Virus record (IMG/VR): IMGVR_UViG_3300000062_000006
Coordinates: 182 to 64,181 of that record
Direction: 5' to 3' (one strand)
Source of the DNA: a virus
DNA: 64,000 bases
The notes under the pieces: generated by a model
What the model saw: the letters and a program-made list of their open reading frames with translations, nothing else
Told to the model about the DNA's origin: nothing
Databases searched by the model: none
Translations under genes and position numbers: made by a program
In this document: positions 19,119 to 19,239 of the stretch, one piece after another
Numbering within the stretch: position 1 is the first letter of the stretch
How the letters are laid out: every line of letters starts with the position of its first letter

Positions 19119-19150
19119 AGTTGCCTAAATTGGAGTCGCTAAAGAGTACA

Positions 19151-19186
19151 GCTGTATGTCCTTCTCAAATTACAATGTAAAACAGT
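19151..19186 (-). repeat. Lone degenerate copy of the CRISPR repeat downstream of the cas12f-like gene
   Basis: Plus strand GCTGTATGTCCTTCTCAAATTA matches the array repeat at 20 of the first 22 nt; the rest is diverged. Confidence 0.8.
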
Positions 19187-19191
19187 TGAGT

Positions 19192-19239
19192 ACTTCATAA
19201 GTGGGTTAGACCCTTACGCTTAGGCGTTACAGCACACCC
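19192..19239 (-). ncRNA. Structured element copy B (candidate tracr/scaffold RNA)
   Basis: GGGTGT-GCTGTA-ACGCCT-AAGCG-TAAG-GG-TCTAAC-CC-A-CTTA-TGAAGT; homologous to 20722-20768 with compensatory changes. Confidence 0.65.

What the first reader, a model, noticed from the sequence alone, without database searches (positions are those of the whole stretch)
19119..19239. Second, stand-alone single-guide-like cassette downstream of the effector gene
Seen on the minus strand: stop codon, scaffold copy B, 5 nt, a degenerate repeat that keeps the 3' 22 nt (20/22) including TACAGC, then 32 nt (TGTACTCTTTAGCGACTCCAATTTAGGCAACT), then the first base of a tRNA-like element. The 32 nt is about one spacer long. 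Inference: a natural fused tracr-repeat-guide RNA with a fixed guide, separate from the adaptive array, perhaps aimed at a conserved host or phage promoter. The locus would then hold both an array and an omega-RNA-like unit, an intermediate between the two architectures.
Basis: partly seen in the sequence, partly recalled or inferred. Interest (0 to 1): 0.8.

Follow-up and report, generated by a model that had tools for sequence, protein, structure and literature searches.

The report
Phage dead-Cas12f natural single-guide RNA
Just after a phage's cutting-deficient mini-Cas12f gene lies a compact, self-contained guide-RNA gene with one fixed guide, a kind already described for bacterial dCas12f; unusually, its guide ends exactly at a tRNA-like element that may serve as a processing signal.

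Summary
On the minus strand the order is: dcas12f stop, a 48-nt scaffold copy, 5 nt, a repeat-like piece keeping 20/22 of the repeat's 3' end, 32 nt, then a tRNA-like element.

The protein is a C-terminally truncated, nuclease-dead Cas12f (PDB 9n9c, E 2e-81). In about 45 related loci the scaffold-plus-repeat unit recurs on both sides of dcas12f. It occurs as a long form that heads an array and as compact fused forms of 53-89 nt, several with a single guide.

The window's unit (89 nt plus guide) fits a four-helix structure with a pseudoknot. That structure is shared with guide-RNA loci downstream of sigma-E-linked chromosomal dcas12f genes: 94% of cells paired, 15 pairs with compensatory changes, 0 of 500 shuffles as good.

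So it is most likely a natural single-guide RNA, a kind already published (Hoffmann et al. 2026). This copy is phage-borne, has no sigma-E partner and sits next to a mini-array.

I found no target for its guide. The "promoter target" idea is untested.

The tRNA boundary appears to be new. In two other loci the last repeat is also followed, 25-30 nt later, by a tRNA or tRNA-like element, which suggests RNase P sets the guide's 3' end.

This scan has already reported phage dCas12f systems on other DNA.

The parts
19249..20367 (-). dcas12f: a 372-aa nuclease-dead, C-terminally truncated Cas12f
   Evidence: PDB 9n9c 'Nuclease-deactivated Cas12f', E 2.4e-81. In the alignment to an active Cas12f (9nzo), Phe replaces the RuvC-I Asp and Val replaces the RuvC-II Glu, and the protein ends before the zinc ribbon and RuvC-III. 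NCBIfam guided_TnpB matches at 1.6e-15, below its cut-off.
19222..19239 (-). P1 hairpin of scaffold B: a 6-bp stem with loop GCUGUA at 19233-19228
   Evidence: Folded. 100% of cells paired with 3 compensated pairs, and 95.6% in the wider set.
19196..19218 (-). P2 hairpin of scaffold B: 8 bp with a bulged A
   Evidence: 96.7-98.6% of cells paired, with 4-6 compensated pairs.
19158..19193 (-). P3, the repeat:anti-repeat-derived stem closed by a loop. 19193-19189 pairs with 19162-19158. An alternative local stem pairs 19190-19186 with 19168-19164.
   Evidence: The family-wide helix is 86.5-93.3% paired with 3-4 compensated pairs. In this copy it has one A.G mismatch, and the minimum-energy fold prefers the alternative CUCAA/UUGAG stem.
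19151..19156 (-). UACAGC, the 3' strand of the pseudoknot with the P1 loop. It is the last 6 nt of the repeat-derived part.
   Evidence: 6/6 complementary here. Loop and repeat end covary across 54 units (0 of 5000 shuffles as good), for example GUUGUA/UACAAC, GCUGCA/UGCAGC, GCUGUG/CACAGC and GUCUAU/AUAGAC.
19119..19150 (-). Fixed guide region of 32 nt. By analogy the first 14-20 nt are probably the functional part.
   Evidence: It sits directly 3' of the scaffold, as in every unit of the family. Published dCas12f guides are 14-16 nt. No target was found.
18992..19118 (-). tRNA-like element with acceptor, D and T arms intact and the anticodon arm replaced by about 70 nt. It is the proposed RNase P site that sets the guide's 3' end.
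   Evidence: Rfam tRNA at 40.6 bits, with 70 nt in place of the model's central 17 positions. ARAGORN calls it only at lowered thresholds, with a forced intron. The same layout occurs in L207 (30-nt gap) and L041 (25-nt gap).
20722..20770 (-). Scaffold copy A (P1 + P2), the head of the upstream array and presumably its tracr-like partner
   Evidence: Folds like B (z = -2.6). P1 and P2 differ from B by compensatory changes.
20384..20683 (-). Mini-array: five 36-nt repeats (the last degenerate) and 30-nt spacers
   Evidence: Spacer 1 matches nadA at 26-27/30 in many Bacteroidaceae genomes.

Best explanation
The 19239-19119 segment is a gene for a compact natural single-guide RNA of the adjacent phage dCas12f.

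Shown:
- It is co-oriented with dcas12f and starts 10 nt after the stop codon.
- Its 89-nt scaffold fits a conserved four-helix design: the P1 hairpin, the P2 hairpin, a repeat:anti-repeat-derived stem P3 closed by a short loop, and a pseudoknot between the P1 loop GCUGUA and UACAGC just before the guide.
- The same design is found downstream of sigma-E-linked chromosomal dcas12f genes.
- The protein lacks all three RuvC catalytic positions.

Inferred:
- The RNA is made by read-through from dcas12f or from its own promoter, and is bound by dCas12f.
- The first 14-20 nt after 19151 pair with DNA next to a short flanking motif (TAM).
- Binding is without cleavage. Because the phage encodes no sigma-E partner, the effect is most likely transcriptional blocking of a host or rival-phage locus that is not yet identified.
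- The 3' end of the guide is released by RNase P cutting at the 5' end of the abutting tRNA-like element, then trimmed.
For: Protein:
- PDB 9n9c, E 2e-81; RuvC residues lost and the C-terminus truncated.

Family survey:
- Scaffold units lie next to dcas12f in about 45 loci.
- Compact forms of 53-89 nt include single stand-alone guides, for example L206, L205, L211 and L041.

Structure:
- Nine compact units: 98.2% paired, 12 doubly changed pairs, 0/500 shuffles as good, slid controls 26-47%.
- With four rpoE-dcas12f loci added: 93.9% paired, 15 doubly changed pairs, 0/500. The upstream gene of L224 is a sigma-70 r2 + r4 protein with a C-terminal extension.
- Copies A and B differ by compensatory changes in P1 and P2.

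tRNA boundary:
- Recurs in L207 and L041 with unrelated tRNA sequences.
Against: - No RNA data: no sequencing run was listed.
- No target for the guide beyond chance. In the window the best match is 13/14, antisense inside an ORF. There was no enrichment over the control pattern in 401 Bacteroidales genomes or in 108 genomes of one genus. No exact 20-mer exists in the viral or metagenome collections. The 133 exact 16-mer hits show no extension and no common context.
- P3 in this copy has a mismatch, and whole-unit folding energy is no better than shuffles. The fold cannot model the pseudoknot.
- No terminal repeat follows the guide, so the unit could be the stump of a lost array.
Confidence: 0.65

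Rival explanations
1. Vestigial stump. Unit B is the decayed remainder of a former downstream scaffold-plus-array (the usual place for arrays in relatives), and its 32 nt is a dead spacer with no present targeting role.
For: In most relatives the unit downstream of the stop heads an array with two or more repeats and a degenerate terminal repeat. Here only one repeat-like piece remains, its 5' 14 nt are degenerate, and no target was found.
Against: Decay would not preserve pairing. P1 (6/6), P2 (8/8) and the pseudoknot (6/6) are intact even though several paired positions differ from copy A. The collapsed length of 89 nt matches other compact units and the published gRNA size.
Confidence: 0.18
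2. A helper or regulatory RNA rather than a guide. Scaffold B would serve as a second tracr-like partner for the array's crRNAs, or as a decoy that titrates dCas12f. The 32 nt would be merely the 5' leader of the tRNA-like gene.
For: Arrays of bare 36-nt repeats need a scaffold in trans, and two scaffold copies exist. The tRNA-like element needs some leader.
Against: B carries its own UACAGC, which would occupy the P1 loop in cis, and its own P3 partner. Scaffold A already sits at the head of the array. In relatives each scaffold has its own cognate repeat family, matched through the pseudoknot.
Confidence: 0.12
3. Activator rather than repressor. The gRNA-dCas12f complex recruits a host ECF sigma factor and starts transcription at the target, as in rpoE-dcas12f systems.
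For: 41-45% identity to sigma-E-linked dCas12f proteins and the same RNA architecture.
Against: No Sigma70_r2 match in the 93%-complete phage genome, and none of the phage relatives inspected has a sigma gene next to dcas12f. In the paper the partner sigma-E carries a special C-terminal domain found almost only beside dcas12f.
Confidence: 0.05

Closest known systems
Single guide RNAs of nuclease-dead Cas12f (rpoE-dcas12f RNA-guided transcription systems; Hoffmann, Wiegand et al., Nature 2026, PMC13472631; structure paper doi 10.1101/2025.06.10.658880)
   Same: - Encoded immediately downstream of dcas12f on the same strand.
- A scaffold of about 70-90 nt with four paired regions and a 3' guide.
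- The same conserved motifs and covarying helices.
- The protein is 45% identical over its full length to the solved dCas12f.
   Different: - Phage-borne.
- No sigma-E and no HTH partner nearby.
- P3 carries a loop about 20 nt longer that still shows its origin from a 36-nt CRISPR repeat.
- A mini-array with its own scaffold copy lies upstream.
- The guide ends at a tRNA-like element, not at a U-tract terminator as in the chromosomal loci.
CRISPR-array-associated dCas12f cluster without sigma-E, mentioned briefly in the same paper as possible repressors
   Same: Nuclease-dead Cas12f next to arrays, no sigma-E, and guides that can match host genes. Here spacer 1 matches nadA.
   Different: The paper does not describe phage carriage, several scaffold-array units per locus, or tRNA-bounded guides: it has 0 occurrences of 'tRNA' and 1 of 'phage', in a reference.
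Type V-F CRISPR-Cas12f dual guide (tracrRNA + crRNA) and engineered sgRNAs
   Same: A scaffold with a pseudoknot and a repeat:anti-repeat duplex. Unit A plus the array looks like a tracrRNA gene followed by an array. Unit B looks like a hand-made sgRNA with the duplex closed by a loop.
   Different: The effector cannot cut, there are no adaptation genes, and the fusion is natural.
TnpB omega-RNA / TldR guide RNAs
   Same: A single RNA with a 5' scaffold and 3' guide encoded at the 3' side of the effector gene, with a fixed guide. TldRs are nuclease-dead repressors, and some are carried by prophages (own knowledge of Wiegand et al. 2024).
   Different: The scaffold does not overlap the ORF end, there are no transposon ends and no TnpA, and the protein's best matches are Cas12f rather than TnpB.
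Engineered polycistronic tRNA-gRNA arrays and Haloferax t-element crRNAs (own knowledge; engineered examples listed)
   Same: A guide RNA abutting a tRNA or tRNA-like structure, so that RNase P or RNase Z defines its end.
   Different: Those are man-made. Here the arrangement is natural and its processing is only inferred.

Membership tests
dCas12f-associated single guide RNA (Hoffmann et al. 2026) | Encoded immediately downstream of dcas12f, on the same strand | tested here: met
   The scaffold starts 10 nt after the stop codon on the minus strand.
dCas12f-associated single guide RNA (Hoffmann et al. 2026) | Conserved multi-stem scaffold (four paired regions) with the guide at the 3' end | tested here: met
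   P1, P2, P3 and the pseudoknot are shared with four rpoE-dcas12f loci: 93.9% paired, 15 compensated pairs, 0/500 shuffles. I did not map these helices one-to-one onto the published P1-P4.
dCas12f-associated single guide RNA (Hoffmann et al. 2026) | Discrete RNA of 85-105 nt bound by dCas12f (RIP-seq) | not testable with these tools
   No run was listed. The predicted length of 89 nt plus 14-32 nt is compatible.
dCas12f-associated single guide RNA (Hoffmann et al. 2026) | Guide matches a genomic site next to a TAM, upstream of a regulated gene | tested here: inconclusive
   No match beyond chance. The host genome is not identified.
rpoE-dcas12f RNA-guided transcription system | Operonic sigma-E with a C-terminal extension | tested here: not met
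   No Sigma70_r2 match in the phage. The upstream gene is DUF4494.
Nuclease-dead Cas12f protein | Cas12f homology with lost RuvC residues and a C-terminal truncation | tested here: met
   E 2e-81 to 9n9c; Asp to Phe, Glu to Val; the protein ends before RuvC-III.
Type V-F CRISPR-Cas (adaptive) | Adaptation genes and an active RuvC | tested here: not met
   No Cas1; RuvC lost.
TnpB omega-RNA | Scaffold overlaps the tnpB 3' end and ends at a transposon right end, with TnpA or IS ends present | tested here: not met
   The scaffold starts after the stop codon. No Y1 transposase in the genome. IS ends were not searched for.
tRNA (canonical) | Cloverleaf with an anticodon arm | tested here: not met
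   The Rfam hit spans only the acceptor, D and T arms, with 70 nt in the middle. ARAGORN gives no call at default settings.

The most novel reading that the evidence does not exclude
The tRNA-like element is a dedicated processing signal. In this phage family the last guide of a unit is matured by host RNase P cutting at a tRNA or tRNA-like structure placed one spacer-length after the last repeat. That would be a natural counterpart of engineered tRNA-gRNA arrays. It is seen here (32 nt), in L207 (30 nt, aberrant tRNA) and in L041 (25 nt, canonical tRNA-Arg), with three unrelated tRNA sequences.
Probability: 0.35. Interest if true: 0.7.

Novelty: new variant of a known kind. Interest (0 to 1): 0.5.

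Why it matters
This copy shows, inside one phage locus, both states of a transition the dCas12f papers only proposed. One scaffold heads an array of bare repeats, which is the dual-RNA logic. A second copy has the repeat:anti-repeat duplex closed into a loop, which is the single-guide logic.

Across relatives there is a graded natural series from about 125 nt down to about 53 nt. The pseudoknot sequence acts as an address that matches each scaffold to its own repeats. That series is a ready-made map for shrinking Cas12f and dCas12f guide RNAs.

A tRNA-bounded guide, if real, would be the first natural example I could find of a trick invented for multiplex genome editing.

It also adds to the picture of temperate Bacteroidales phages using non-cutting RNA-guided binders on host genes.

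Tried and rejected
1. Target in the phage itself. The only hit is a 13/14 match at 2485-2498(-), antisense inside ORF 2229-2711 and not promoter-like. I treat it as chance.
2. Host target. 18 nt with up to 2 mismatches in 401 Bacteroidales genomes gave 21 hits against about 27 for the control pattern. 16 nt with up to 1 mismatch in 108 genomes of the genus with the best spacer-1 hits gave 4 scattered hits.
3. Neighbourhood of the nadA site. 20-kb stretches in three genomes held no match to guide B or to spacers 2-4.
4. Public collections. There is no exact 20-mer in the viral or metagenome collections. The exact 16-mer gave 118 + 15 hits, extending by at most 2 nt, with no shared flank. The two clusters I inspected lie inside coding regions of a non-Bacteroidota-looking contig and of a phage tail-fibre gene.
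5. Phage database. One exact 17-nt match starts at guide position 1, in crAss-like phage cr131_1 gp51 (E = 3). It is suggestive but at chance level.
6. Expression. No sequencing run was listed.
7. Promoter and terminator scan. Nothing above the shuffled expectation.
8. Closest phage records by DNA. No synteny information for the tRNA-like side.
9. Reading the tRNA-like element as an intron-containing or suppressor tRNA. ARAGORN gives only a forced, low-threshold tRNA-Phe with a 32-nt intron and a poor anticodon stem. Rejected.
10. RNA anti-CRISPR (solitary repeat unit). Rejected, because the unit is cognate to the adjacent effector and carries a full scaffold.

Full report
**What is there**

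The window is a 65-kb IMG/VR virus record, estimated 93% complete. It has weak DNA similarity to Bacteroides phages.

On the minus strand, the 372-aa ORF at 20367-19249 is preceded by a mini-array and followed by the cassette in question.
- The mini-array has five 36-nt repeats with 30-nt spacers at 20683-20384.
- After the stop codon come a 48-nt scaffold copy (19239-19192), 5 nt, and a 36-nt repeat-like piece. The last 22 nt of that piece match the array repeat at 20 positions.
- Then come 32 nt (19150-19119) and an Rfam tRNA hit at 19118-18992.
- A second scaffold copy (A, 20770-20722) sits 35 nt upstream of the first array repeat.

A 20/22 match is far beyond chance: about 1.6e-5 expected per window by my arithmetic.

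**The protein**

It is a nuclease-dead Cas12f.
- Its best solved relative is 9n9c, "Nuclease-deactivated Cas12f" (E 2.4e-81, full length).
- Aligned to an active Cas12f (9nzo), the RuvC-I Asp is Phe and the RuvC-II Glu is Val.
- The protein stops just before the zinc ribbon and RuvC-III.
- More than 1,100 homologues exist in metagenomes. The nearest is 71% identical.
- Those with readable context lie among phage genes such as ERF, YqaJ, DnaB, KilA-N/ANT, DUF4494, methylases and integrase.

**What is already known**

Hoffmann, Wiegand et al. (PMC12259090, published as PMC13472631) established the following.
- Together with a dedicated sigma-E they start transcription at the target.
- A sister cluster without sigma-E lies near CRISPR arrays and may repress.
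- One locus holds both full-length gRNAs and CRISPR arrays, which the authors read as the origin of single guides from repeat-spacer units.

The structure paper describes four paired regions plus a 14-nt guide. Neither paper mentions phages or tRNAs in this context.

**Comparative anatomy**

I collected 36 viral loci, 4 genome loci, 9 contigs of close homologues and 6 chromosomal loci.

Almost every locus has, directly after the stop codon and often also before the start codon, the same head.
- P1 is a 5-6-bp hairpin with a hexaloop of the GCUGUA type.
- P2 is a bulged hairpin ending in CACUC.
- A GAAGUAC-like box follows.

The head is followed by one of two forms.
- Long form: a 35-45-nt linker and a 36-nt repeat heading a mini-array, about 121-126 nt from P1 to the guide.
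- Compact form: a shortened repeat, 53-89 nt in all, in tandem with 18-19-nt spacers or as a single stand-alone guide. Examples are L206, L205, L211, L041_3869, L010/L023 and L002.

Loci with two to four such units, each with its own repeat family, are the rule (L054, L209, L002, L041). The window's unit B (89 nt) belongs to the compact class. Unit A plus the array belongs to the long class.

**Structure**

The P1 loop is complementary to the last six bases of the cognate repeat, and the two covary: GCUGUA/UACAGC, GUUGUA/UACAAC, GCUGCA/UGCAGC, GUUGCA/UGCAAC, GCUGUG/CACAGC and GUCUAU/AUAGAC.

I picked each repeat end with a crude rule that ignores the loop sequence. Even so, complementarity over 54 units exceeded all 5,000 shuffles.

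Pair counts on the alignments:

| Set | Cells paired | Pairs changed on both sides | Shuffles as good | Slid controls |
|---|---|---|---|---|
| Nine compact units | 98.2% | 12 | 0 of 500 | 26-47% |
| Plus four loci downstream of chromosomal dcas12f genes | 93.9% | 15 | 0 of 500 | 25-51% |

- In the added chromosomal loci the upstream neighbour looks like a sigma factor with a C-terminal extension. I confirmed this for L224 as Sigma70_r2 + r4 in a 269-aa protein.
- Unit B satisfies P1 (6/6), P2 (8/8) and the pseudoknot (6/6), although it differs from copy A at several paired positions. That argues for selection on the RNA after the duplication.
- P3 has one A.G mismatch, and a neighbouring 5-bp stem (CUCAA/UUGAG) may replace part of it.
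- Whole-unit folding energy is not better than shuffles, as expected when a pseudoknot is ignored.

**How it most likely works**

*Shown:* an effector that cannot cut, and a conserved, covarying scaffold placed and built like validated dCas12f gRNAs.

*Inferred:*
- The RNA is bound by dCas12f.
- The first 14-20 nt after 19151 pair with DNA next to a TAM.
- The complex binds without cutting.

The phage has no Sigma70_r2 match and the neighbouring gene is DUF4494. None of the phage relatives I inspected has a sigma gene beside dcas12f. Repression is therefore more likely than activation.

The array's first spacer matches a conserved part of nadA at 26-27 of 30 positions in many Bacteroidaceae genomes, antisense to the gene. 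I could not reproduce matches for the other spacers in the genomes I sampled.

**The guide's target**

I did not find it. The searches are listed under Tried and rejected. All gave chance-level results, including a 17-nt exact match in a crAss-like phage (E = 3). The "conserved promoter" idea remains untested. The host species is not identified.

**The tRNA-like neighbour**

- The element keeps a 7-bp acceptor stem, a D arm and a T arm, but has about 70 nt where the anticodon arm should be.
- In L207 (protein 64% identical, same DUF4494-array-dcas12f synteny) the last repeat is followed after 30 nt by an aberrant tRNA. ARAGORN places the anticodon at position 30, and the Rfam tRNA model does not match.
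- In L041 (a Prevotellaceae MAG contig, 56% identical) the last repeat is followed after 25 nt by a canonical tRNA-Arg.
- The three tRNA sequences are unrelated to one another. None of these last guides has a terminal repeat.
- About 13 tRNAs and about 55 unit ends lie in 244 kb of loci. On that basis I estimate about 0.02 such juxtapositions by chance. This is a rough calculation of my own.
- The sigma-E-linked chromosomal gRNAs end instead in a U-tract.

This suggests that RNase P cleavage at the tRNA 5' end releases the guide's 3' end. I found only engineered precedents. This part is inference.

**Verdict**

The kind is already known, and the scan has reported phage dCas12f systems before on other DNA.

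What this copy adds:
- a natural dual-guide and single-guide pair in one phage locus;
- a family-wide series of guide compaction, with pseudoknot "addresses" that match each scaffold to its repeats;
- a possible tRNA-based 3' processing signal.

Noticed in passing
window 20364-20419 (-); also L041:3869, L010/L023:3894, L205:380, L002:3911: The terminal, degenerate array repeat (3' end CACAGC) is followed by a 'spacer' that runs into the ribosome-binding site and start codon of dcas12f itself. In several relatives a compact unit likewise abuts the dcas12f start codon. This may point to autoregulation, or it may only be tight packing.
   Followed up: no
window 14376-14428 and 14382-14401 (-): The pseudo-spacer after the terminal repeat matches 17/20 (13/14 over its first 14 nt) inside a 24-nt AT-rich tandem repeat about 6 kb away. 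The sequence is low-complexity, so this may be chance.
   Followed up: no
L054:2593-4560; L209:1960-4070; L002:3824-5750: Single loci carry three to five scaffold units, each with a different repeat family. The 3' hexamer of each repeat family matches the P1 loop of its own scaffold, which looks like a built-in addressing system.
   Followed up: partly
L207:4130-4270; L208:3625-3810: These scaffolds have P1 loop GUCUAU and repeats ending AUAGAC, several positions away from GCUGUA/UACAGC on both strands with pairing kept throughout. This is the strongest single case for the pseudoknot.
   Followed up: partly
window 20618-20647 (-); L058:1499-1528: Array spacer 1 matches the conserved Cys-rich region of quinolinate synthase nadA (26-27/30), antisense to the gene, in many Bacteroidaceae genomes. 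The two mismatches nearest the repeat are at spacer positions 1-2.
   Followed up: partly
window 17111-18146: Three copies of a 124-nt direct repeat (84% and 65% identity) lie inside three paralogous small ORFs next to a 328-aa ORF. Another note of this scan reads this as a diversity-generating retroelement.
   Followed up: no
L219 (NC_055902.1 46014-46030): The first 17 nt of guide B match exactly inside gp51 of crAss-like phage cr131_1, antisense to the gene and next to the giant gp50. E = 3, so not significant, but a rival-phage target would make biological sense.
   Followed up: partly
L221, L223, L224, L226 (downstream of rpoE-dcas12f): The chromosomal sigma-E-linked gRNAs share a nearly identical guide (GGCGUGGGCUCU type) followed at once by a U-tract, in different genomes. 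This is consistent with the conserved target described in the paper.
   Followed up: no
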